In this document: positions 1 through 63,293 of the stretch, piece by piece
How the letters are laid out: the number at the start of each line of letters is the position of its first letter
Position numbering within the stretch: the first letter of the stretch is position 1
Source: a virus
Virus record (IMG/VR): IMGVR_UViG_3300009285_007322
Direction: 5' to 3' (one strand)
DNA length: 64,000 bases
The notes under the pieces: model-generated
The model's database searches: none
Told to the model about the DNA's origin: nothing
The model's input: only the letters and a program-made list of their open reading frames with translations
Translations under genes and position numbers: made by a program

Positions 1-1025
1 TCCTCCTTAAGACTATTGATCAGCGCCGCGATCTTGCCCCGGAAGTCGGTGAACGACGACGTCATTGCATGGGTCGGATCGAATGGCTGACCTTCGCTTC
101 CAAGACTTCTGGCCGCTCCCACAGTAGGAGGAGGAGCAACATATCGCAGCGGCGGAATGTAGTCGCCCAGGATTACCTGGTTGTAGTGCTGCAGGAGCAG
201 GATCGCGATCACATCCGGGAACGCGTAGAAGAACGGAGGCAGGCTCCAGCCTCCCAGGTTCATGTCGATGATGCTCGCGTCCTGGAAACCCAGGTAGAAG
301 AAGCTGGACTCGTCCAGCTCCAGCTCGCAGCCGAGCCGCGCAGAGTCGATGAATTCCCTGGGAGTCTCTCTATGGATCAAAGGATCGCCTGACTTTACCA
401 ACCGGGACACGTCATCCCACTGCCCGCAGTTCACAAAAAGCTTGCGAGCCCCACTGATGGGTTCGTACTTCATCCTGCAGATGGACAGCGGTATCCTGCG
501 CAACTTAGCCCTATGCGCTTCGTCACGATGCCTCATCTCGGCCAGTGCATGCTTCCCTGCCTTGCCGCATGCTGGGCACTTGCCTGTGTAATCCCCTGAG
601 CCAAGATCGTACTTGAACCCGTGATCCGTCATGGCTGTGTATACGTCCGTGCGCGCGCCACATATACACTGGACACTGCGGATGAGCGGAAAGAACAGAT
701 ACACGCAGCTGCCGCCAAAACCCATAGCCTCCAGCAGTGCCAACATGGTCTGGTCGGTCGACGCAAAGTTGCGGTTCAGGAGTTGCCGCGCATTCTTGAT
801 CTCTTCGAGCTTTCCTTCCACCCCCTCGGCGGACTCGACCTCAATCTCGGTCATGAAGTATGAAGTTCCACGGATGATAGCTTGCCGGTATGCCGGACAG
901 GTCATCCATAGGAAAGCCGCCCAGCCGAGAGCCTCCCTGAAATTGACAGGCATGAGTTGACGGGCAAGAGTGTCCGTCATCTTGTCTATCTGTTCAATGG
1001 TCTTCTGCAGGGTGGTGGAAGCCAC
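1..1025 (-). CDS. Probable portal protein (5' part; ORF runs off the left edge of the window)
   Basis: Absent from the ORF track because it has no stop in the window. Hand translation from GTG at 1025 (GAGGTG RBS 5 nt upstream) stays open for 341 codons: MASTTLQKTIEQIDKMTDTLARQLMP..EALGWAAFLWMTCPAYRQAIIRGTSYFMTE..QCICG..KCPACG..GWSLPPFFYAF..ILGDYIPPLRYVAPP. The CDS is solid. The portal call is inference from remembered resemblance to Zn-ribbon-containing portal-like proteins of large uncultured phages. Confidence 0.55.
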   Translation of the reverse strand, partial: MASTTLQKTIEQIDKMTDTLARQLMPVNFREALGWAAFLWMTCPAYRQAIIRGTSYFMTEIEVESAEGVEGKLEEIKNARQLLNRNFASTDQTMLALLEAMGFGGSCVYLFFPLIRSVQCICGARTDVYTAMTDHGFKYDLGSGDYTGKCPACGKAGKHALAEMRHRDEAHRAKLRRIPLSICRMKYEPISGARKLFVNCGQWDDVSRLVKSGDPLIHRETPREFIDSARLGCELELDESSFFYLGFQDASIIDMNLGGWSLPPFFYAFPDVIAILLLQHYNQVILGDYIPPLRYVAPPPTVGAARSLGSEGQPFDPTHAMTSSFTDFRGKIAALINSLKE

Positions 1026-1077
1026 GTGCGCACCTCACTGTTTCCTGCTTCCGACATGGTGCAGGCTATACAGCAAG

Positions 1078-1086
1078 TACTATAAC
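1078..1086 (-). promoter_or_regulatory. Putative -10 element GTTATAGTA upstream of the portal-like gene
   Basis: The identical 9-mer occurs intergenically at 54740-54748 upstream of another minus-strand operon. A related GCTATAGTG lies at 11928-11936. Confidence 0.3.
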
Positions 1087-1133
1087 AGACAGAGGCGTGC
1101 AGACCACTTCCCGCCTATGTAAAGCCTAACAAC

Positions 1134-1161
1134 GGAGAGCGCCCCTTCCGGGGAGCTCTCC
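1134..1161 (-). terminator. GC-rich hairpin with GGAA (GNRA) tetraloop; possible terminator or 3' end of the candidate ncRNA
   Basis: Minus strand GGAGAGC-T-CCCC-GGAA-GGGG-C-GCTCTCC, followed by GTTGTT. Confidence 0.5.
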
Positions 1162-1188
1162 TAAGAGTACTACTGTCTTATTCACTAT

Positions 1189-1272
1189 TTAGGACTGTTC
1201 ACATTTTGTGAACAGGAGTAGAAAATAAACGGACTCAACACCGCCAGTTGCCTTCGGACTGTCTGAGTGCAT
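1189..1272 (-). CDS. Possible 27 aa peptide MHSDSPKATGGVESVYFLLLFTKCEQS inside the structured region
   Basis: AGGAGA RBS 5 nt upstream of the ATG. The ATG lies in the predicted stem. Confidence 0.25.
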   Translation of the reverse strand: MHSDSPKATGGVESVYFLLLFTKCEQS

Positions 1273-1683
1273 AGCAGTCTCCTGGATTTCCCAATCCGTT
1301 GTCTGCTACTCTCCGTGCACCGCGCGACGACCTCAGGTAACAAAAAGGCTCCTGTCCGGATGTAAGCCCCGGACACGGAACCTGAGAACAGGGGTGGACT
1401 TGGAGGTTAGCGGTCGCGATCCGCCGCCTCCGCGTCTCAGGAGTCTCAGGGCCTTCCTGCAGCAGTCCCGTAGCCCTATTCCTGTCCGCTGCGTCCGGCT
1501 GTCGCTTCCGGAACGCCTGGAACGACGCCTGCGCTACGTTGGCCCTATCGCGGGTCTCCGCGCAGCTGTCCAAAGTACAGAACATCTGGTCTGCTTCCTG
1601 CGGTTGGGGAAGAGAGGAGAGAGGAGGAGGGAGCCCGCAGGAAGCAGACCGGATGCCCCATAACAAAGGGACTATCTCAATCT

Positions 1684-1713
1684 ATTATGCCACAAATGCA
1701 TTACATTTTTCAA
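1684..1713 (-). promoter_or_regulatory. sigma70-type promoter TTGAAA-N18-CATAAT with extended -10 TG
   Basis: -35 at 1708-1713 and -10 at 1684-1689, in an AT-rich gap just after the ligase stop. Predicted start is about 1677. Confidence 0.6.
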
Positions 1714-1716
1714 TAC

Positions 1717-3045
1717 TCATCCCTCATGCCGCGCCAGGAACGAAGGAGCCCGCAAAGCTCCGGATCCGAACTGTCCCTGCGCCCGCACCCGTGCCTTCCG
1801 ACCGATCCACTCGTCCGGATTGACCAGCATATCCGCTGCGTCGGTTCTCGAGAACCCTGATCCTACCCGCCCCACAATCGGCCCATCTGGCTCGACGCTA
1901 AACCCGAACCCTCCAGCCCTGGCCGATCTGTCGGAAGTCTCAGCAGGAAAGATCTCCCTTATGTAGACGTCGTACTCGTCCTGTAACTTGTGCTTGATCG
2001 GCGTTCCTCCGGCTTTCGGCCGGAATACCACACCTTCCGATGTTAACGGATGCTTGCCGGCACGTATACGATCCAATAGCTCTCTGGAAAACTCAGGATC
2101 GTCGGACTCCTCCACTGGATGCAGTCTTCCTCCGGTCAGGTCTGCCAATCGTACAAAGTCTCTGCGCAGCTTCTCTCGGGCCGCATCGGGGATATCGGCC
2201 CGTCCGTAGAGCGCGACCAAGAGACGTATGCCCGCATCGCGCTGCCGTTCTCTGGACTTCAACGAAGAAGTATTGAGCAATCCTCCAAGCGCGTGGGCAG
2301 GTATTGCCTTTCCTCTGGCAGTTCCGTACACCTCTCCACGGTACACAGCTCCGCGCATATCTGCCGGAACAGGTACCCTGTCCAGCCCGCCAATCTTCCA
2401 AGTATAGGTCAGAGGCTGCCCGGTCTTCGACTGCCGTACACTGGACACGTCTATACGGTTCTTCAGCAGGCGCACCAGGGCTGCGGCTCCGTCGATCTTG
2501 GGAGAAGCCGCGTACTCGTCTGTCAGATAGGGCTCAGGATCCTTGGCAGACCTGTACTGCGCCTTGCCGTATTTCTTCGCATCCTTGCCGCTGCCTGTGA
2601 CATTGACCAGGAACCAGCTATTGTCTGCCTTCCTGACCAGCATGTATTCCTTCGGGTGCCTGGGATGGATAAGCGCGAAGCGTACCATCCCAGGAGCAGC
2701 GTCAGTTATAACAGCACGTCCCTTGTCCGCCATACTGACAGTTCCGGCTCCTCGTCCTTCCGGAATTGTACCCTCAAATGACCCATACGCGTACCGATGG
2801 ACCGGCTGCTGTATAGCCAGAACACTATCGCCTGGATTCTCAGGAAACCTGTCTTTCGGTATCGCCCACGACAGCAGTCCTGTAGACTTGTCGCCTATAC
2901 GAAGATCGGCATGCTTTCCTGCCCTGCGCGCCAGATGCAGCTGACGGACATAGTCGAACTCGGCTCCCTGCCTGAGCGCCGCCACGTTTCCCTGACGCCT
3001 GGTTGATCCATCGTCTGCGCGCATGTCTGTACAATAGCAGCGCAA
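1717..3045 (-). CDS. LigD-type 3'-phosphoesterase domain fused to an ATP-dependent DNA ligase
   Basis: N-terminal QLH..GKHADLR..SWAIPK..VHRYAYGSFEGTIPEG..GAGTV (LigD PE pattern). Ligase motifs I PKIDG, III GEVY, IV EGVVFR and V IKHK, plus OB domain GRVGSGFS..LRAPSF. The true start may be the GTG near 2990. Confidence 0.85.
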   Translation of the reverse strand: MRCYCTDMRADDGSTRRQGNVAALRQGAEFDYVRQLHLARRAGKHADLRIGDKSTGLLSWAIPKDRFPENPGDSVLAIQQPVHRYAYGSFEGTIPEGRGAGTVSMADKGRAVITDAAPGMVRFALIHPRHPKEYMLVRKADNSWFLVNVTGSGKDAKKYGKAQYRSAKDPEPYLTDEYAASPKIDGAAALVRLLKNRIDVSSVRQSKTGQPLTYTWKIGGLDRVPVPADMRGAVYRGEVYGTARGKAIPAHALGGLLNTSSLKSRERQRDAGIRLLVALYGRADIPDAAREKLRRDFVRLADLTGGRLHPVEESDDPEFSRELLDRIRAGKHPLTSEGVVFRPKAGGTPIKHKLQDEYDVYIREIFPAETSDRSARAGGFGFSVEPDGPIVGRVGSGFSRTDAADMLVNPDEWIGRKARVRAQGQFGSGALRAPSFLARHEG

Positions 3046-3175
3046 GACACATGCTGCAGAAAATGCATATGATATTCAAGCTGCAGAACTCAAAGCTAAG
3101 GAATCGCTTTTTCCCTTCGGGAAACCGCCAGAACATTTACTGCAGAGAATTTTCAACTGGACAGGCCAAAAAGCT

Positions 3176-3222: not shown

Positions 3223-3342
3223 TGGACACGGAAGGATTCGAACCTTCGAGCGGAGTAGTGCGACTGTATGCGCATGGTCCCCGCTGCCGATTTACTGGGC
3301 TACAACTCCCTCGGCCGGCTTCAACCTCTCGCCCACGTGCCC
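3223..3342 (-). tRNA. Non-canonical tRNA-Tyr-like RNA (120 nt) with G3.U70 acceptor, 20 nt anticodon loop and 38 nt variable arm; CCA not encoded
   Basis: Acceptor GGGCACG/CGTGTCC plus A73. D-arm GGC-GAGAGGTTGAA-GCC. Anticodon stem GCCGA/TCGGC with a loop ending CA-GTA-AA. T-arm GAAGG-TTCGAAT-CCTTC, a perfect canonical T-arm of the type found in E. coli tRNA-Tyr. Confidence 0.8.
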
Positions 3343-3347
3343 CCGTA

Positions 3348-3539
3348 CTAGGCCGCGTCCTCCTCCTCGTCCGTCTCTGGACGGGAGGGAAGCGTCATAT
3401 CGCGCCGACGCGCGTCTCTGTCCTCGCGCTTCGGCTTGCGATCATCACGCTTCTGCTGCTGGGCCTCCCGGTTCTGTCTTGCGATCAGTTCCAGGTAGGC
3501 GTCAGCCATACGCGGCCTCTGCTGGAAGAAGGGACTCAC
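3348..3539 (-). CDS. Small highly charged hypothetical protein (63 aa)
   Basis: Tightly packed after the 3541 ORF; stop lies 5 nt before the tRNA-like RNA. Confidence 0.6.
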   Translation of the reverse strand: MSPFFQQRPRMADAYLELIARQNREAQQQKRDDRKPKREDRDARRRDMTLPSRPETDEEEDAA

Positions 3540-3837: not shown

Positions 3838-4040
3838 GCCTGCACCTCCTCCTTGCCCAGGTTCCTCGAGTCCTTCACCCCCATCACCGGCCAGGGGGTG
3901 TCCACCGGATATCCGGTGGATCGCGCGAACGCAGCCCGCATACGCTTCTTTCTGGCGTACGCGGACTCCTCGGAGGGGTTGTGTGTTCCCCCTCCTTCCA
4001 CCCGCATGGCACGGGTGGAAACTTGACGCTGACGCTTCAT
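3834..4040 (-). CDS. Small basic hypothetical protein (68 aa)
   Basis: ATGA overlap with the upstream ORF. Confidence 0.65.
   Translation of the reverse strand: MKRQRQVSTRAMRVEGGGTHNPSEESAYARKKRMRAAFARSTGYPVDTPWPVMGVKDSRNLGKEEVQA
3901..3920. repeat. Perfect 20 bp palindrome TCCACCGGATATCCGGTGGA
   Basis: All 10 pairs checked; no spacer. Confidence 0.95.
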
Positions 4041-4249
4041 GCTTGGTTCCTCCGATTCGTGGACCCAGGCTTGTGATACCCTTCCTTGTTCCGATCTGAC
4101 GGGAGGGAAGAGATCATCGAGTCATACGCCTTCGCACGCGCTGCGGCCCGTGCAGCAGCCTTCACGTTCGGCCGGTTCCATTCCGGCTTACGCTGGGCTC
4201 CAGGCTTCCGCAGCTTCTTCAGCCCAATGGGCTGGACCTTCTCAGCCAT
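4037..4249 (-). CDS. Small basic hypothetical protein (70 aa, 17 K+R)
   Basis: ATG at 4249 with GAGGAG RBS (shorter than the ORF-track call 4037..4483). Confidence 0.7.
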   Translation of the reverse strand: MAEKVQPIGLKKLRKPGAQRKPEWNRPNVKAAARAAARAKAYDSMISSLPSDRNKEGYHKPGSTNRRNQA

Positions 4250-4368
4250 TCGCTTCTCCTCTGTCCGGTTCCCGCCGGACACGGCTGCCATAATGTCTAT
4301 GGCACTATCCTGCTCACGAAGTGTGCAGGACATTGTCAAGATATTATGCCGCAGAAAACGGGTGTTTT

Positions 4369-5049
4369 TCAGGCTTCCGGAACAGTCCTGAAGATCAGGC
4401 TGCAGGAGCCTTTGGCAGGAACACAGGCCACCAGGAACCCGGCGTACACAGCGGTGTCCGGGTCTTCCACATCGGCCGGACATACTGCAATACGTGAGTC
4501 GGTTTTGTACAAGGGCAGCGAAGCGGACACCTGGAGTATCCGGACATCCCCTGCTGTCATCATCCTACCCTCCACCGTCCGGGTGTCTGGGTCCTCCCCA
4601 TCCTGCATCACACAGAGTACCCACTCGGACAGTGAAGCAACTGGAGGAGCCTGCGCAGCAGGGGCTGCAGAAGCTGCCGACACGGACGATGCCACCGATT
4701 CAGGAACAAGACGACGAAAGCGCTTCCTGGAGATCTCCGTAGTTCCAGGAAACCGAACCTGCCCTGCAGGCTTCAGGTCAATGTCCCCCGGCTTACCAGG
4801 CACGTTCACAGTGCCCAATACAAACGATCCCAGCGTATTCCCCACACTATCTTTGCCTGGGTCTATCCGTTCCACTGTCCTGGAGCTGTACCGACCGCCA
4901 AGGCCCATGTGAGCATCCCGGACCACCTGCACGTTCATGATGGTTTCCGGTTCTATACCGGAAGTCACCACCGGACGCTTGCGGCCGGAAGCGTCTGTGA
5001 CAAACTGCGGAAGATCGTCAGGCATGGTATAGACCTTTCTTGCGGACAA
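4369..5049 (-). CDS. Hypothetical protein (226 aa)
   Basis: Long ORF in the operon direction with an Ala-rich linker. Confidence 0.7.
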   Translation of the reverse strand: MSARKVYTMPDDLPQFVTDASGRKRPVVTSGIEPETIMNVQVVRDAHMGLGGRYSSRTVERIDPGKDSVGNTLGSFVLGTVNVPGKPGDIDLKPAGQVRFPGTTEISRKRFRRLVPESVASSVSAASAAPAAQAPPVASLSEWVLCVMQDGEDPDTRTVEGRMMTAGDVRILQVSASLPLYKTDSRIAVCPADVEDPDTAVYAGFLVACVPAKGSCSLIFRTVPEA

Positions 5050-59931: not shown

Positions 59932-60014
59932 CTGATGTCGTGCGCCCCGCTGCCGTCCGCATCGTCGTACCTCCTGCGGGCACCATGCCCGGTGTTACGC
60001 TACCACGCGCGCGG

Positions 60015-60170
60015 TCACTTCGCCACGGGTCGCAGGCCCAGAGCCTGCTCCAGCGTCTCCACGCGTGCCCGTAGCTGCGGCACGCTGTTCTCGCTGCCGG
60101 GGTTCGCGGCCACCGCCGTGCGCTTTGCCTTGCGGGGCAGGTACTCGCTCTTGTCGTGTCGGTGCGTCAT
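60015..60170 (-). CDS. Small hypothetical protein (51 aa)
   Basis: ATGA overlap; LRARVETLEQAL coil typical of tail-fibre-associated peptides. Confidence 0.6.
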   Translation of the reverse strand: MTHRHDKSEYLPRKAKRTAVAANPGSENSVPQLRARVETLEQALGLRPVAK

Positions 60171-60571
60171 GCGGGCCACTCCACGTTGACCGCGGCCACC
60201 GCCGCCGCGTCTGCCGCCAGGTCGATCCGGTCTGCCGCCGCGTCCTCTGCCGTCGTGCATGCGTGGATCCAGGCGGCGCACTCCTCGGCCTGGGCCGCGG
60301 CGTAGACTCCCAGCGCACAGTTGATCTGCGCCCAGTCCGGCCAGCGGTCCAGGATGCGCCGCGCGCACTCCATGCGGTTCGCCGTGATGGCGCGCGTTTT
60401 CAGTTCGGCCAGCGTGGGCGGGGGTGGCGCGGGCGGGTCGGGCTGCACGATGTAGCCAAACCGGGCTAGCGTCGCCTCGTCCTCGTTGCCGGTCCAGTGC
60501 CAGGCCTCGTCAGACCAGCGGCGGCCGGGCGTGATGGTGCGGAGTTGGCCGGATGGGGTGAGGATGGTCAT
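60167..60571 (-). CDS. Tail fibre assembly-like protein
   Basis: PPPTLAELKTRAI..W.Q.N..A..V.AV..W pattern at the end of the tail-fibre module. Confidence 0.6.
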   Translation of the reverse strand: MTILTPSGQLRTITPGRRWSDEAWHWTGNEDEATLARFGYIVQPDPPAPPPPTLAELKTRAITANRMECARRILDRWPDWAQINCALGVYAAAQAEECAAWIHACTTAEDAAADRIDLAADAAAVAAVNVEWPA

Positions 60572-60572
60572 G

Positions 60573-61397
60573 TCAGTACACCGCCCATTTGGTGTTCAGA
60601 TAGCCCTCGATCTCCGCGATGTCAGCAGCCGACACGCCGGCACTATGTTGGTACATCAGGCATTCCCCGACCCATCCATATAGCGGATAGGTGGCAGACG
60701 CGCCCGGCGCTCCAACCGAGACTCCGAGCAGGGGTATCCCGCCCAGACTCATCGCCGTTTCCAGCCCCCATGTGTACGCGTCTGGGGCGACACTGTAGGC
60801 GAGGCTGCCATTGATGAATATCCCCATGCTGCCTGCGCCCCCCCCGGCATTGCGCATGTCGTGCCGGAACAGCGCCATCGGCGCCATCGCCGCTCCCGTA
60901 GTGTAGCTCTTCCCGCCAAGCGGCCCGCTGCCGTAGGTCCCAATGCCGTAGTACGCCCCATTGGCTGCCAGGTAGCGCAGCGATGACCGCGTACTCGTGG
61001 CCGTGTTCAAGCTGAACACGCCGCACAATTGCCAGTCTGGCAGAGTCTGCTGTTTGGCCAGGACAAAGATGGTGGCGCGGCACCAGTTTCCGGCCGCGCC
61101 AAACGGGTCGCCAGGCACGACCAGAGACCGCGTACCGGGGGAGTTCAGAGCAGCCAGCCCGTTCTGTATGCTGGTCTTGTAGTAGGGCCGCAGGGCGGCT
61201 GTGGCCTGCGACGCGTTGTAGCCGTTGCCCGAGAGATCGGGCAGGGTCTGCACTGTGTCGCCATCATTGTACCCCACCAGCTCGGATGGGTCATACCAGG
61301 CTGACGGCAGCAGCCCACCATCGGCCGTCGGGCTGGCTGGCGTCCACGCCCCGCCCCGCGTCCGCGCGGCCCTGAGTTGTGCCTGCCAGTGCTGCAT
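60573..61397 (-). CDS. LamG/concanavalin A-like lectin-domain protein (receptor-binding candidate)
   Basis: WYD..D.D.V..DLSGNG.NA.Q..RP..NG..L..G.VGE..Y..IE.YL..KW. Confidence 0.8.
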   Translation of the reverse strand: MQHWQAQLRAARTRGGAWTPASPTADGGLLPSAWYDPSELVGYNDGDTVQTLPDLSGNGYNASQATAALRPYYKTSIQNGLAALNSPGTRSLVVPGDPFGAAGNWCRATIFVLAKQQTLPDWQLCGVFSLNTATSTRSSLRYLAANGAYYGIGTYGSGPLGGKSYTTGAAMAPMALFRHDMRNAGGGAGSMGIFINGSLAYSVAPDAYTWGLETAMSLGGIPLLGVSVGAPGASATYPLYGWVGECLMYQHSAGVSAADIAEIEGYLNTKWAVY

Positions 61398-61400
61398 GGA

Positions 61401-63293
61401 TTACGCCTTCTCCCAGCAGACCATTCGATACCCGCTCGCCTCGCGCCACAGCACGAAGCCCACCGACGCCGCGGCAATGTCGGCCAGGTCGTCGGTGGCG
61501 TCCGCAGTGACGCCGGTCGTCGTAGTCGCATAGGCCCCTGCGATGATGCCAGAACAGCCCTCGCCAATCTCCAGGCCAGAGGGCGTGATCCCGGTCCAGA
61601 TCCCGGTGCGGGTGACTGTGTGGTGTGCCCCGGCCACGAGCGCTGGCGCCCAGGCCCCGGCTCCCGCAGACGGCAGCGCCACCAAGCAGGCGGTGCGCTC
61701 TACCGTCGCGCTCGCGGTCCAGCGGAGCCGGTCCCCGGCAGTCGTGCCGGTGGACTTGGGCACCAGCGCGGTATCCGTCGCGTGTACGTGGTCCCGGCGG
61801 GCTGCGGTCATGGCCGTGCCAGGTGCCGCCGTGCCGTTGTTCGCCGGGTTGGTCGCGTCGAACAGGACCTTGTCGGTGCGGGCCGTCTCGCCGTTGGCGA
61901 TGCCGAGCAGGTTCAGCAGCCCCGCGCCTGGGGCCGTCGCCTGCGGAGCAAACCCCACTGCGCTGGTAGTCGCGACGGCGATGTTGTCCCCGCCGTTGGT
62001 GTGCGACGCGGCATGTGCAGCGGGCGCGCCGGCCGCAACGTCAGTCTGGTGCCAAACCGCCGCGCCAACCGTCGCGTCTACGCACACATACTCGTTGTCG
62101 GCAGTGATGTCGATCCACCGGGACCCCACCGCGTAGCCGTCGCCGCTATCGTCCGTCACCGCGGGCGCCGCCGTGGCGTCGCGCTTGTGGAGCAGCACCG
62201 TGTAGGTCGCCGAGCCGGTGCTCAGCAGCTCCTGTTGCGCCGCCGTGAACGTGCCCTTGGGGATGGCGTTCGCGGCCAGCGTGCCCTGCGCCGCCGTGGC
62301 GTAGTCTCCGCTGGCGGTGTAGGCCGCGCTGCCCAGTCCAAGGGCCGTCTTGACTTCTGCGAGGGTGTGACGTATCCACAGGCCGAAGGGCGTTGCGTTG
62401 CCCAGCAGAAAATCGTGCTCTGCGGTTGGGGCTTCGATGCCTGAGTGCGAACTGGACACGGCCGCGCCAGCGTGGGCAGCGGGCGTGAAGTCACCAGTCG
62501 CGGCGTAGGCCGCGCTCCCCAGGCCCAGGATCGTCTTGACTTCCGCCAGCGTCTTGCGGACCCACGAACCAAACGGCGTGGCGTTGCCGACTGCAAAGTC
62601 ATTCTCTGCGGTGGGCGCCTGGATGCCGCTGTGGCTCGTGCTGACGGCGGCCCCGGCGTGCGCGGCAGCCGTGTACAAAGTGTCGAAGTAGGTCTTGAGC
62701 CAGGCCTTGACCTGCGTGCCGGTCTTGACGCAGTACACCCACACCGCGCCGATGTACTGCCCAACCTCAAAGCGGTTGGCGTCGGCCAGGGCATCGCCGT
62801 CGGCGGTGGTGCGGGTGACGGTCTCTGCAAATAGAGCTGCATGCGCTTCGTCGTCCGCATCGTGCGCGTCGACCAGATCCTGCGCCTCTCCTGCCAGTGC
62901 GTATGACTCCACCACAGCCACCGGAACTGTACCGTGCGGCTGAGGTGCCCAGGATATATCTGCAGTACCGGAGGCAATCCACTTCTCAGATGTATTGTCC
63001 CAGATACCTATCCACAAACTGGCAGTTTCTTCGCTATTCCTGAACAAGCTCAACAGCAGCGCCGTATTCAGATCAATAGAGGCGGATCCGTCTCCGTCTG
63101 CAACCATCAGCTCTGTTGGAACCACCACCCTCTGCTTCCTGTAGGACAGAGGACGGGCACCGTCGGCTATGTGTAACCAGGCCGAAATGCCTCCAAGATC
63201 CGTTCCGGACGTGACAAAATCGATAGTGTCCCAGAGAAACAATGTCCCCGAGACCGTCAGAGTCGATCCGGATACTGCCAGAGTTACACTCAT
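61401..63293 (-). CDS. Tail fibre / baseplate-attached receptor-binding protein (630 aa)
   Basis: Ala/Thr/Gly-rich; internal 62 aa duplication; PAVTDDSGDGYAVGSRWID and AARRDHVH motifs common in tail fibres. Confidence 0.75.
   Translation of the reverse strand: MSVTLAVSGSTLTVSGTLFLWDTIDFVTSGTDLGGISAWLHIADGARPLSYRKQRVVVPTELMVADGDGSASIDLNTALLLSLFRNSEETASLWIGIWDNTSEKWIASGTADISWAPQPHGTVPVAVVESYALAGEAQDLVDAHDADDEAHAALFAETVTRTTADGDALADANRFEVGQYIGAVWVYCVKTGTQVKAWLKTYFDTLYTAAAHAGAAVSTSHSGIQAPTAENDFAVGNATPFGSWVRKTLAEVKTILGLGSAAYAATGDFTPAAHAGAAVSSSHSGIEAPTAEHDFLLGNATPFGLWIRHTLAEVKTALGLGSAAYTASGDYATAAQGTLAANAIPKGTFTAAQQELLSTGSATYTVLLHKRDATAAPAVTDDSGDGYAVGSRWIDITADNEYVCVDATVGAAVWHQTDVAAGAPAAHAASHTNGGDNIAVATTSAVGFAPQATAPGAGLLNLLGIANGETARTDKVLFDATNPANNGTAAPGTAMTAARRDHVHATDTALVPKSTGTTAGDRLRWTASATVERTACLVALPSAGAGAWAPALVAGAHHTVTRTGIWTGITPSGLEIGEGCSGIIAGAYATTTTGVTADATDDLADIAAASVGFVLWREASGYRMVCWEKA
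62295..62666 (-). repeat. Two imperfect tandem 186 bp (62 aa) repeats in the tail fibre
   Basis: AAHAGAAVSTSHSGIQAPTAENDFAVGNATPFGSWVRKTLAEVKTILGLGSAAY vs AAHAGAAVSSSHSGIEAPTAEHDFLLGNATPFGLWIRHTLAEVKTALGLGSAAY; the units start at 62666 and 62480. Confidence 0.92.

What the first reader, a model, noticed from the sequence alone, without database searches (positions are those of the whole stretch)
1134..1677. Candidate ~545 nt highly structured non-coding RNA with its own promoter, between the ligase and portal genes
Seen in the sequence: a good sigma70-type promoter (1684-1713) fires leftward into a 650 bp gap with no credible long ORF. The gap is packed with stems: a 21 bp stem at 1583-1655 (16 bp perfect); CGCGG/CCGCG (1549-1562); GTCG-TTCC/GGAA-G-CGAC (~1502-1527); GGAGG..GCGG/CCGC..CCTCC (1402-1431); CTCAGGT..TGTCCGG/CCGGACA..ACCTGAG (1332-1387); a three-tier nested stem GTGCA/TAGCAG/GGATT closed by GGGA (1267-1320); CTGTTCACA/TGTGAACAG (1195-1215); and a terminal stem with GGAA (1134-1161). 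Both GNRA tetraloops read correctly only on the minus strand. The 5' TAGTCCC can pair with GGGACTG at 1463-1469. Established knowledge: phages carry large ornate ncRNAs (GOLLD, ROOL) often near tRNAs, and phi29 uses a prohead RNA for packaging. Inference: this may be a new large RNA class, and its position next to the portal-like gene raises a packaging or structural role.
Basis: partly seen in the sequence, partly recalled or inferred. Interest (0 to 1): 0.85.

Follow-up and report, generated by a model that had tools for sequence, protein, structure and literature searches.

The report
Phage leader hairpin with C/U loop
The gap between this phage's ligase and portal genes is a non-coding promoter-to-terminator unit, and the only part shared with related phages is a ~110-base RNA hairpin with a long C/U-only loop, so it looks like a small regulatory or leader RNA and not a new giant structured RNA.

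Summary
A strong sigma70-type promoter (1713-1684, minus strand) fires into a 691-bp gap full of inverted repeats, and no ORF there is credible. The long ORFs have no homologues, and indels break them in a ~92 %-identical wastewater relative. No Rfam family matches.

The reading as one new ~545-nt ornate RNA class is only partly supported. Only the first ~110 nt recur in related phages. They comprise the promoter, a 15-28 bp GC-rich stem, a 23-73 nt G-poor C/U loop that always contains UCCUCCU, and a U/C-rich tail. Five other lineages carry this at the same place upstream of the portal gene. Their stems differ in sequence but stay paired: 88/90 cells paired, both-sided changes at 11/15 positions.

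Downstream of the hairpin, four of the five relatives carry a conserved ~55-aa protein gene. This phage has ~430 nt of unique non-coding sequence ending in a hairpin. That segment is better conserved (91-95 %) than the flanking genes (83-88 %) in one near relative. Its folding excess on the transcribed strand is not exceptional for this genome, and the covariation evidence is equivocal.

Best reading: a cassette leader or small RNA whose exposed anti-Shine-Dalgarno-like loop pairs with purine-rich ribosome-binding sites. No expression data were obtained. An earlier scan entry described similar C/U-loop hairpins on other DNA.

The parts
1684..1713 (-). Sigma70-type promoter: -35 TTGAAA (1713-1708), TG (1692-1691), -10 CATAAT (1689-1684). 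The -35 starts 3 nt after the ligase stop (1719-1717).
   Evidence: 10/12, TG present. The -10 block GGCATAAT is invariant in six lineages, and TGTGGCATAATAGA is identical in the window and L020.
1665..1677 (-). Inferred transcription start (~1677) and short 5' leader. It contains GUUAY, which recurs in L051, L052 and L023.
   Evidence: The start is inferred from the spacing to the -10 box; no RNA data. Leader lengths are 11-17 nt in the six lineages.
1583..1655 (-). Long hairpin: 21-bp arms (1655-1635 / 1603-1583), extendable to 28 bp with G-U pairs (1664-1575). The 31-nt loop (1634-1604) has a 29-nt C/U-only run (1634-1606) that contains CCUCCU.
   Evidence: The same architecture with different stem sequence occurs in L020, L022, L051, L052 and L023.
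1572..1582 (-). U-rich tail (UUCUGUACUUU) after the hairpin, a possible partial intrinsic terminator. It would give an RNA of ~105-115 nt.
   Evidence: U/C-rich tails follow the hairpin in all six lineages. Termination itself is inferred.
1162..1571 (-). Lineage-specific non-coding 'cargo' segment with many local stems (e.g. 1332-1386, 1267-1320, 1402-1431). The hexamer CTCAGG/CCTGAG occurs 4 times.
   Evidence: No homologue in relatives. It is 91-95 % identical in wastewater contigs against 83-88 % for the flanking genes. ORFs on both strands are broken by indels. z is -2.89 (minus) and -4.60 (plus).
1134..1161 (-). Terminal GC-rich hairpin with a GGAA loop, the likely 3' end of the unit. The U-tract after it is weak.
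   Evidence: I2. It is unchanged in the wastewater variant, whose similarity stops at ~1119. Relatives have clean terminators at the same relative position.
1026..1133 (-). Portal gene's own upstream region: candidate -10 TATAGT (1084-1079), SD GAGGTG (1036-1031), GTG start at 1025.
   Evidence: Seen in the sequence. A CATAGT/TATACT-type box sits at the same place in L018, L019, L020, L022, L023 and L052. Inferred.
1717..2985 (-). LigD-type ATP-dependent DNA ligase (422 aa as called; a TTG at 3045 would give 442 aa).
   Evidence: Pfam LigD_N 7e-14; PHROG 114; P0001 is 100 % identical.
3..1025 (-). N-terminal 341 aa of the 646-aa portal protein (full length in L001 6961-8901).
   Evidence: Foldseek top 50 hits are all phage portals, best E 1e-5, TMq 0.15-0.32. 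There are no Pfam, PHROG or PDB sequence hits.

Best explanation
The gap is a separate, non-coding transcription unit on the minus strand, laid out like a moron cassette: its own strong host-type promoter, a leader, a cargo and a terminal hairpin. The portal gene's own promoter follows. The conserved, functional core is the leader: ~13 nt, then a long GC-rich stem that holds a 31-nt G-poor C/U loop open, then a U-rich tail. I propose that this hairpin acts as a partial intrinsic terminator. It would release an ~105-115-nt small RNA and also let some transcripts run on into the cargo. The single-stranded loop (repeats of CCUCC/CUCCU, the core of the 16S anti-Shine-Dalgarno sequence) would then base-pair with purine-rich ribosome-binding sites, of host or phage mRNAs in trans or of the cassette's own cargo in cis, and block translation initiation. 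In this phage the usual protein cargo (a ~55-aa protein in relatives) is replaced by ~430 nt of non-coding, locally structured RNA of unknown role. Shown: promoter, hairpin, loop composition, conservation and covariation, absence of coding. Inferred: transcription start, termination, and the pairing function.
For: Promoter 10/12 with an extended -10. The hairpin region folds with z -6.45. The same promoter-hairpin-tail layout occurs upstream of the portal gene in five other lineages whose portal proteins are only 47-51 % identical. Each hairpin folds with z -3.5 to -7.3. Stems are 15-28 bp, loops 23-73 nt, and all loops contain UCCUCCU; four of the six loops have 0-1 G, L051 has 2, and the 73-nt L022 loop has 11 G because it holds an internal GC hairpin. 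Counting pairs from the stem base, 88/90 cells are paired with both-sided changes at 11/15 positions, against 42/84 cells and 2-4 positions when the partner is slid. L052 versus L023 shows two compensatory double changes and no disruptive change. The loop motif is kept while the stems diverge, as expected for a seed region. There is one copy per locus. No sigma70-like promoter lies between the hairpin and the small ORFs in L051, L020 and L022, so the hairpin heads the cassette. Non-coding: no homologues for either long frame, the frames are broken in the near relative, and the relatives' small-protein family is absent from the window. In the near relative, substitutions at 1321-1560 keep 7 predicted pairs and break 4 on the minus strand, against 1 kept and 11 broken on the plus strand. 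SCI is 0.951 on the minus strand and 0.921 on the plus strand. Precedent: CU-rich motifs of LhrC, including one in its terminator structure, bind target mRNA and impede translation (PMC4132741).
Against: There are no expression data. All holders of the sequence are DNA runs, and the groundwater metatranscriptomes hold none of its words. The window's U-tail is weak, and the loops are far larger than in canonical terminators. CCUCCU in a C/U-only loop is expected fairly often by chance, and almost any SD is complementary to it, so the target cannot be named. The two closest portal relatives (71 % and 66 %) lack the hairpin in the sequence held. Only six lineages are known; none is in IMG/VR, INPHARED or 185,579 genomes. 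For the 430-nt cargo the minus-strand z-score lies within the genome background, and its higher identity could reflect recent cassette exchange and not selection.
Confidence: 0.5

Rival explanations
1. One reading: the whole 1677-1134 transcript is one large, ornate, functional RNA of a new class (GOLLD/ROOL-like), possibly acting in packaging like phi29 pRNA.
For: The promoter-to-hairpin unit is ~545 nt. It is non-coding. It has many stems and two minus-strand GNRA loops that are unchanged in the near relative. 1119-1560 is 91-95 % identical where the flanking genes are 83-88 %. SCI is higher on the minus strand. Several C-G to U-G changes are valid only on the minus strand.
Against: No Rfam match. 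The 3' 430 nt have no homologue in any relative at the same locus, and four of the five hairpin-bearing relatives carry a small protein gene there. The minus-strand z of -2.89 lies within the genome background. About ten substitutions break predicted pairs, and the proposed 5'-to-1463 pairing is lost. The portal gene has its own promoter after the unit's hairpin, so adjacency says little.
Confidence: 0.13
2. Purely cis-acting leader or attenuator. The hairpin is a conditional terminator, or a Rho-loading (rut-like) C/U tract held in a loop, that sets how much transcription reaches the cassette cargo. It has no trans-acting role.
For: The hairpin lies between the only detectable promoter and the cargo ORFs in L051, L020 and L022. 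In L051 only ~68 nt separate it from the ORF start. U/C-rich tails follow it in all six lineages. [quoted passage not shown] The 5' leader can pair with the tail in most lineages.
Against: In the window there is no ORF to regulate, yet the element is intact and has the longest stem. Loops of 23-31 nt in four of the six lineages are short compared with the ~80-nt rut regions described in PMC12691595. No candidate regulator is conserved; the small protein is absent here.
Confidence: 0.22
3. DNA-level element: a replication origin, packaging site or recombination hot spot built from inverted repeats (cruciforms), a polypurine/polypyrimidine tract (triplex-prone) and repeated CTCAGG hexamers that bind a protein.
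For: The stems exist on both strands, and the plus strand of 1134-1570 has the stronger z (-4.60). The hexamer occurs 4 times in 120 bp. The site is next to the portal gene. The purine/pyrimidine tract is conserved.
Against: The strong promoter is conserved just upstream, the U-rich tail occurs on one strand only, and the loop is C/U specifically on the transcribed strand in all six lineages. Wobble-type changes fit the minus-strand RNA only. There is no AT-rich unwinding region and there are no iterons shared with relatives.
Confidence: 0.08
4. One or more small proteins are encoded in the gap: the 116/143-aa frame 1585/1666-1235, the 63-aa frame 1376-1185, the 27-aa frame 1272-1189 with a good SD, or a plus-strand frame 1229-1663.
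For: Gene callers called the 116-aa ORF in 7 of 10 contigs. The 27-aa ORF has AGGAG 6 nt upstream of its ATG. All seven substitutions at 1243-1321 are synonymous in the plus frame.
Against: No homologues. The +2 (after 1513) and +1 (after 1390) indels put stops in both long frames. One variant has a stop in the 63-aa frame. The 27-aa frame loses its stop and collects non-synonymous changes. The plus frame has no start codon before 1394 and is preceded by stops in the window. C/U-only tracts cannot contain stop codons, so frames that stay open across the loop mean nothing.
Confidence: 0.05

Closest known systems
C/U-rich-loop regulatory sRNAs of bacteria (LhrC of Listeria, PMC4132741; also RNAIII/Rsa-type and SprX-type C-rich loops, from my own knowledge)
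   Same: Own promoter, short RNA ending in a hairpin, and exposed C/U-rich motifs complementary to Shine-Dalgarno regions. In LhrC one motif sits in the terminator structure.
   Different: Here there is one very long loop (23-73 nt, nearly pure C/U) instead of short UCCC-type motifs. The element is phage-encoded, heads a variable cargo cassette, has no sequence or Rfam relationship, and has no shown target.
alpha-r8 / suhB sRNA family (Rfam RF00519), the lead from earlier scan note e1-1109065
   Same: A small RNA whose conserved feature is a pyrimidine-rich, anti-SD-like loop.
   Different: No match to that covariance model, even at E <= 10 in the window or E <= 1 in five relatives. Different host context (uncultured groundwater and wastewater phages).
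Phage leader RNAs and 5'-UTR-derived sRNAs just downstream of early promoters (HK022 put, lambda nut, IsrK of Gifsy-1; from my own knowledge)
   Same: A conserved structured RNA placed directly after a strong host-type promoter and before downstream genes, with possible short and long transcript forms.
   Different: No sequence or structure similarity. put and nut have small defined loops. No antitermination partner is identified here.
Rho utilisation sites with CU-rich tracts (cfa 5' UTR, PMC12691595)
   Same: A G-poor C/U tract in a 5' leader, partly presented by a stem-loop.
   Different: Most loops here are much shorter than the ~80-nt rut regions described in that paper, and they are followed by a terminator-like stem and U-tail.
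GOLLD, ROOL and phi29 pRNA
   Same: Phage-borne and non-coding; the primary transcript could be several hundred nt.
   Different: No covariance-model match. There is no multi-domain architecture conserved across lineages, and only ~110 nt are shared.

Membership tests
Large ornate phage RNAs (GOLLD, ROOL) and other Rfam families | Match to the family covariance model | tested here: not met
   0 matches at gathering score in 64 kb. At E <= 10 on 900-1900 there are only weak miRNA-precursor-like hits to the long hairpin (best 27.5 bits against a gathering score of 100).
Large ornate phage RNAs (as a kind) | A large multi-helix architecture conserved with covariation across diverged lineages | tested here: not met
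   Only the 5' ~110 nt recur. 1026-1582 has no blastn or nhmmer hit in 11 related loci.
phi29-type prohead RNA | Match to the pRNA model, and a role in the packaging motor | tested here: not met
   No Rfam hit. The packaging role is not testable here; the portal gene has a separate promoter.
alpha-r8 / suhB sRNA (RF00519) | Match to the family covariance model | tested here: not met
   No hit at E <= 10, nor at E <= 1 in L020, L022, L051, L052 and L023.
Trans-acting sRNA with C/U-rich seed (functional class) | Own promoter and a compact RNA ending in a hairpin | tested here: met
   Promoter 10/12 plus TG. Predicted RNA of 84-128 nt in six lineages. Expression is not shown.
Trans-acting sRNA with C/U-rich seed (functional class) | Single-stranded seed conserved while the scaffold varies | tested here: met
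   The loops are unpaired in all six MFE folds and share UCCUCCU. The stems co-vary: 11/15 positions, 88/90 cells paired.
Trans-acting sRNA with C/U-rich seed (functional class) | Demonstrated pairing with a target mRNA | not testable with these tools
   The host is unknown, and the complementarity to GGAGG-type sites is generic.
Intrinsic (Rho-independent) terminator | GC-rich stem, small loop (3-8 nt), then a U-tract | tested here: inconclusive
   The stem and U/C-rich tail are present in all six lineages. The loops of 23-73 nt fall outside the scanner's definition, so it does not call them.
Rho utilisation (rut) site | Unstructured C-rich, G-poor stretch of about 80 nt | tested here: inconclusive
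   G-poor and C-rich: met. Length: 23-38 nt in four lineages, 62-73 nt in two.
Protein-coding gene (ORF 1235-1666 or others) | Frame kept open and under purifying selection in relatives; homologues exist | tested here: not met

The most novel reading that the evidence does not exclude
This small clade of uncultured phages carries a dedicated RNA that mimics the ribosome's anti-Shine-Dalgarno sequence many times over in one large open loop. It would act as a general blocker or sponge of ribosome-binding sites (host shut-off or timing of phage gene classes). In the window's lineage it has acquired a ~430-nt conserved, structured non-coding cargo in place of the usual small protein, which would be a new composite phage RNA.
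Probability: 0.15. Interest if true: 0.7.

Novelty: new member of a known kind. Interest (0 to 1): 0.45.

Why it matters
Phage-encoded regulatory RNAs are poorly catalogued, above all in uncultured environmental phages. This is a cleanly delimited element absent from Rfam, with helix-level covariation across six lineages and an unusual design: a long stem that keeps a nearly pure C/U tract single-stranded directly behind a strong early-type promoter. If the loop does pair with ribosome-binding sites, it would be a simple RNA route to translational control or host shut-off. It also shows a cassette whose leader is kept while the cargo is swapped between a small protein and non-coding RNA. The report also corrects an over-reading: most of the claimed 545-nt 'ornate RNA' has no support from comparative data.

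Tried and rejected
1. Alternative genetic code: all three stop codons occur in every frame of the gap. Rejected.
2. tRNA or tmRNA: none in the window.
3. DGR template or other repeat of the gap elsewhere in the window: only self hits.
4. Close phage records: no INPHARED match for 1-3100. IMG/VR has no relative of the ligase or portal, and none of two 23-24-nt core words.
5. The promoter-only pattern in IMG/VR gave 26 loci, all unrelated.
6. The pattern GGCATAATA-N36-66-TCCTCCTCTCT in JGI metagenomes gave 42 loci. Only 5 are true: three are the same phage and two are L052/L023-like. In 185,579 genomes it gave 19 loci, all chance, so there is no host clue.
7. Ten contigs of the same phage are identical in the gap (one has 4 substitutions), so they are useless for covariation.
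8. The phage of ligase relative P0002 is not syntenic; a methyltransferase follows its ligase.
9. A decayed copy of the relatives' ~55-aa protein in the gap: tblastn and an HMM find nothing. One of the five seed sequences for that HMM (the L052 copy) was cut in the wrong frame.
10. Leader-peptide idea for ORFs spanning the C/U loop: starts are inconsistent, L023 has a stop in the loop, and C/U tracts cannot contain stops anyway. Rejected.
11. Column-based covariation tools could not be used because MAFFT does not put the arms in register. I counted pairs from the stem base in a script instead.
12. RNA evidence: the 'RNA-Seq' wastewater runs are flagged as probably DNA and are kept only as contigs. 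The groundwater metatranscriptomes hold none of the words.

Full report
**The locus.** The window's left end carries two minus-strand genes. One is a LigD-type DNA ligase at 1717-2985/3045 (Pfam LigD_N 7e-14; PHROG 114). The other is the start of a 646-aa protein at 1025-3, full length in L001. That protein has no Pfam, PHROG or PDB sequence match. A model built from 14 homologues (pLDDT 66) hits only phage portal proteins in Foldseek: the top 50 are all portals, best E 1e-5, with low TM-scores (TMq 0.15-0.32). Between the two genes lie 691 bp (1026-1716).

**The observation.**
- The promoter is real as a consensus match: TTGAAA, 18 nt, TG, CATAAT at 1713-1684 on the minus strand, 10/12.
- All three stop codons occur in every frame, so recoding does not rescue a gene.
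- The 544 nt fold better than dinucleotide shuffles on both strands: z -4.05 (minus) and -3.72 (plus).
- Splitting the region is informative. The 113 nt at 1565-1677 give z -6.45. The remaining 437 nt give -2.89 (minus) and -4.60 (plus).
- Twelve other 437-nt windows of this phage give -1.23 +/- 1.28 on the minus strand, with three at -2.6 to -2.8. The 3' part is therefore not exceptional on the strand that would be transcribed.
- Rfam gives nothing at gathering score in the whole window. On 900-1900 at E <= 10 there are only weak miRNA-precursor-like hits to the long hairpin. ARAGORN finds no tRNA.

**Coding.**
- Some gene callers marked a 116-aa ORF (1585-1235), the same frame as 1235-1666.
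- The 143-aa frame has no relatives among 1.84 billion representatives, apart from a fragment of itself and two low-complexity hits. The open plus-strand frame 1229-1660 has none either.
- Four wastewater runs hold short contigs 91-95 % identical to 1119-1560. They carry +1 after 1169, +1 after 1390 and +2 after 1513.
- I rebuilt the variants from the difference tables. Both long frames then run into stops. One variant puts a stop in the 63-aa frame (1376-1185). The 27-aa frame with a good SD (1272-1189) loses its stop and collects non-synonymous changes.
- One oddity remains. All seven substitutions at 1243-1321 are synonymous in the plus frame. That frame has no start codon before 1394 and is preceded by two stops in the window, so I treat this as unexplained and not as a gene.

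**Relatives.**
- The same phage occurs in many groundwater and soil data sets. Its gap is letter-for-letter identical in 9 of 10 contigs; the tenth differs at 4 positions. These copies say nothing about covariation.
- Portal homologues exist in only about 14 other clusters. I fetched nine of their contigs and one ligase relative.
- By blastn, tblastx and nhmmer, nothing in them resembles 1026-1582.
- The very start of the gap does recur. In L020 (ligase 53 %, portal 50 % identical, same ligase-gap-portal order) the -10 region TGTGGCATAATAGA is identical. It is followed by a hairpin with a completely different GC-rich stem and a 38-nt loop made only of C and U.
- The same layout is present upstream of the portal gene in L022, L051, L052 and L023. 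A metagenome scan also found it in two further JGI contigs that are copies of the last two.

**The conserved hairpin element.**
- Each hairpin folds far better than shuffles: z -3.5 to -7.3.
- Across the six lineages, leaders are 11-17 nt, stems 15-28 bp and loops 23-73 nt. Four loops have 0-1 G and L051 has 2. The 73-nt L022 loop has 11 G because it contains an internal GC hairpin.
- Every loop contains UCCUCCU, and every hairpin is followed by a U/C-rich tail. The predicted RNA is 84-128 nt.
- Counting pairs from the stem base, 88 of 90 cells are standard pairs, and 11 of 15 positions show changes on both sides. Sliding the partner by 1-2 nt gives about 50 % pairing and 2-4 such positions.
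- The close pair L052/L023 differs by two compensatory double changes and three G-C to G-U changes, with none disruptive.
- This is good evidence for a selected RNA (or single-strand) hairpin whose loop sequence matters. There is one copy per locus. It matches no Rfam family in any relative.

**What follows the hairpin.**
- L020, L022 and L051 (and L021, which lacks the hairpin in the sequence held) carry a conserved 52-57-aa protein (blastp 3e-12 and 2e-10). A clean terminator follows it in L020 and L051 and by eye in L022, and then a second promoter-like site in L020 and L022. L052 appears by eye to have a copy as well; L023 has a different 68-aa ORF next to the portal.
- No sigma70-like site lies between the hairpin and these ORFs in L051, L020 or L022. 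In L051 only ~68 nt separate them. The hairpin is therefore the leader of a promoter-to-terminator cassette.
- The window has the same frame: promoter, hairpin, terminal hairpin 1134-1161, then a TATAGT box and the portal start. Its cargo is ~430 nt of unique non-coding sequence, and the small-protein family is absent from all 64 kb.
- The two closest portal relatives (71 % and 66 %) show no hairpin in the little upstream sequence held, so the cassette is patchy.

**Is the 430-nt cargo a structured RNA?**

In favour:
- In the low-depth wastewater relative it is 91-95 % identical, while pieces of the portal and ligase genes at similar depth are 83-88 %.
- The similarity stops at ~1119, just outside the terminal hairpin.
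- Both minus-strand GNRA loops and the 1260-1314 and 1411-1464 blocks are unchanged.
- Between 1321 and 1560, substitutions keep 7 predicted pairs and break 4 on the minus strand, against 1 kept and 11 broken on the plus strand.
- The structure conservation index of the three-sequence alignment is 0.951 (minus) against 0.921 (plus); column shuffles give 0.906 and 0.895, sd 0.02.

Against:
- The strand asymmetry could come from a G-to-A mutation bias.
- About ten substitutions break predicted pairs, above all at 1174-1260 and 1466-1468.
- The higher identity could be recent cassette exchange.
- The z-score is ordinary for this genome.
- There is only one diverged relative.

I rate a dedicated structured cargo RNA as possible but unproven.

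**Mechanism.**
- A long stem that forces a G-poor C/U tract to stay single-stranded, right after a strong promoter and before a U-rich tract, fits a short RNA made by partial termination, with the loop as the active site.
- CCUCCU is the core of the 16S anti-Shine-Dalgarno sequence. CU-rich motifs, including one in a terminator structure, are the target-binding sites of LhrC (PMC4132741).
- I therefore favour pairing with purine-rich ribosome-binding sites, in trans or on the cassette's own ORFs.
- The element is intact in the window, where there is no ORF to control. That argues for a function beyond cis translational control.
- The main rival is a purely cis attenuator, possibly Rho-dependent, since CU-rich tracts can be part of rut sites (PMC12691595). 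Four of the six loops are short for that.
- A DNA-level role is least likely. The C/U strand, the tail and the promoter are all consistently oriented.

**Earlier scan notes.** Note e1-5357981 described the same hairpin in this window, and I confirm its anatomy. Note e1-1109065 described comparable C/U-loop hairpin sRNAs in another genome and pointed to the alpha-r8/suhB family. That model does not match here.

**Verdict.** The interpretation as a new large ornate RNA with a packaging role is not supported beyond the existence of a non-coding unit. What is solid is a new, narrowly distributed small leader/sRNA element with a conserved C/U loop. No expression data were available.

Noticed in passing
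L021 5681-6279, L022 8165-8920, L051 8318-8992 (ORFs run off the loci): Four to five genes downstream of the portal, relatives encode a giant 1900-2300-aa protein. In L021 and L022 it has Pfam RNA_pol_Rpb2_6 and Rpb1_2 hits plus intein hits, and in L022 also a LAGLIDADG hit, which suggests a fused beta-beta' multisubunit-type RNA polymerase. No Pfam record is held for the L051 ORF.
   Followed up: no
L020 3529-3687, L022 3087-3260, L021 503-670, L051 3273-3440; by eye also L052 ~3236-3400: A conserved 52-57-aa protein (motif R.G[NH].AVE ... RRLV) with no Pfam or PHROG match sits just upstream of the portal gene in several relatives and is absent from this window.
   Followed up: partly
L021 ~676-760: A tRNA-like sequence ending in CCA lies between the small protein gene and the portal gene of this relative.
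   Followed up: no
window 1332-1450: The hexamer CTCAGG/CCTGAG occurs four times (1332, 1381 inverted, 1436, 1445). Segment 1380-1387 has three alternative pairing partners, which allows either mutually exclusive helices or protein-binding repeats.
   Followed up: partly
window 1169-1390, plus strand: All seven substitutions at 1243-1321 against the wastewater variant are synonymous in the plus frame. In the variant, TAG at 1190 becomes TGG, TAA at 1226 becomes CGA, and a +1 indel opens a plus-strand frame of at least 97 codons that is closed in the window. Unexplained.
   Followed up: partly
window 60001-62000: GC content jumps to 0.69, against ~0.56 in the rest of the window.
   Followed up: no
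window 4001-4437: This stretch has the strongest plus-strand folding excess among the 12 background windows (z -3.6). It lies in the region of small basic ORFs next to the tRNA-like element that other notes flagged.
   Followed up: no
window 1-3100 in public runs: The same phage, with an identical gap, is present in groundwater and soil metagenomes from about ten studies. Diverged relatives (portal ~82-87 % nt identity) occur in 2025 wastewater libraries.
   Followed up: partly
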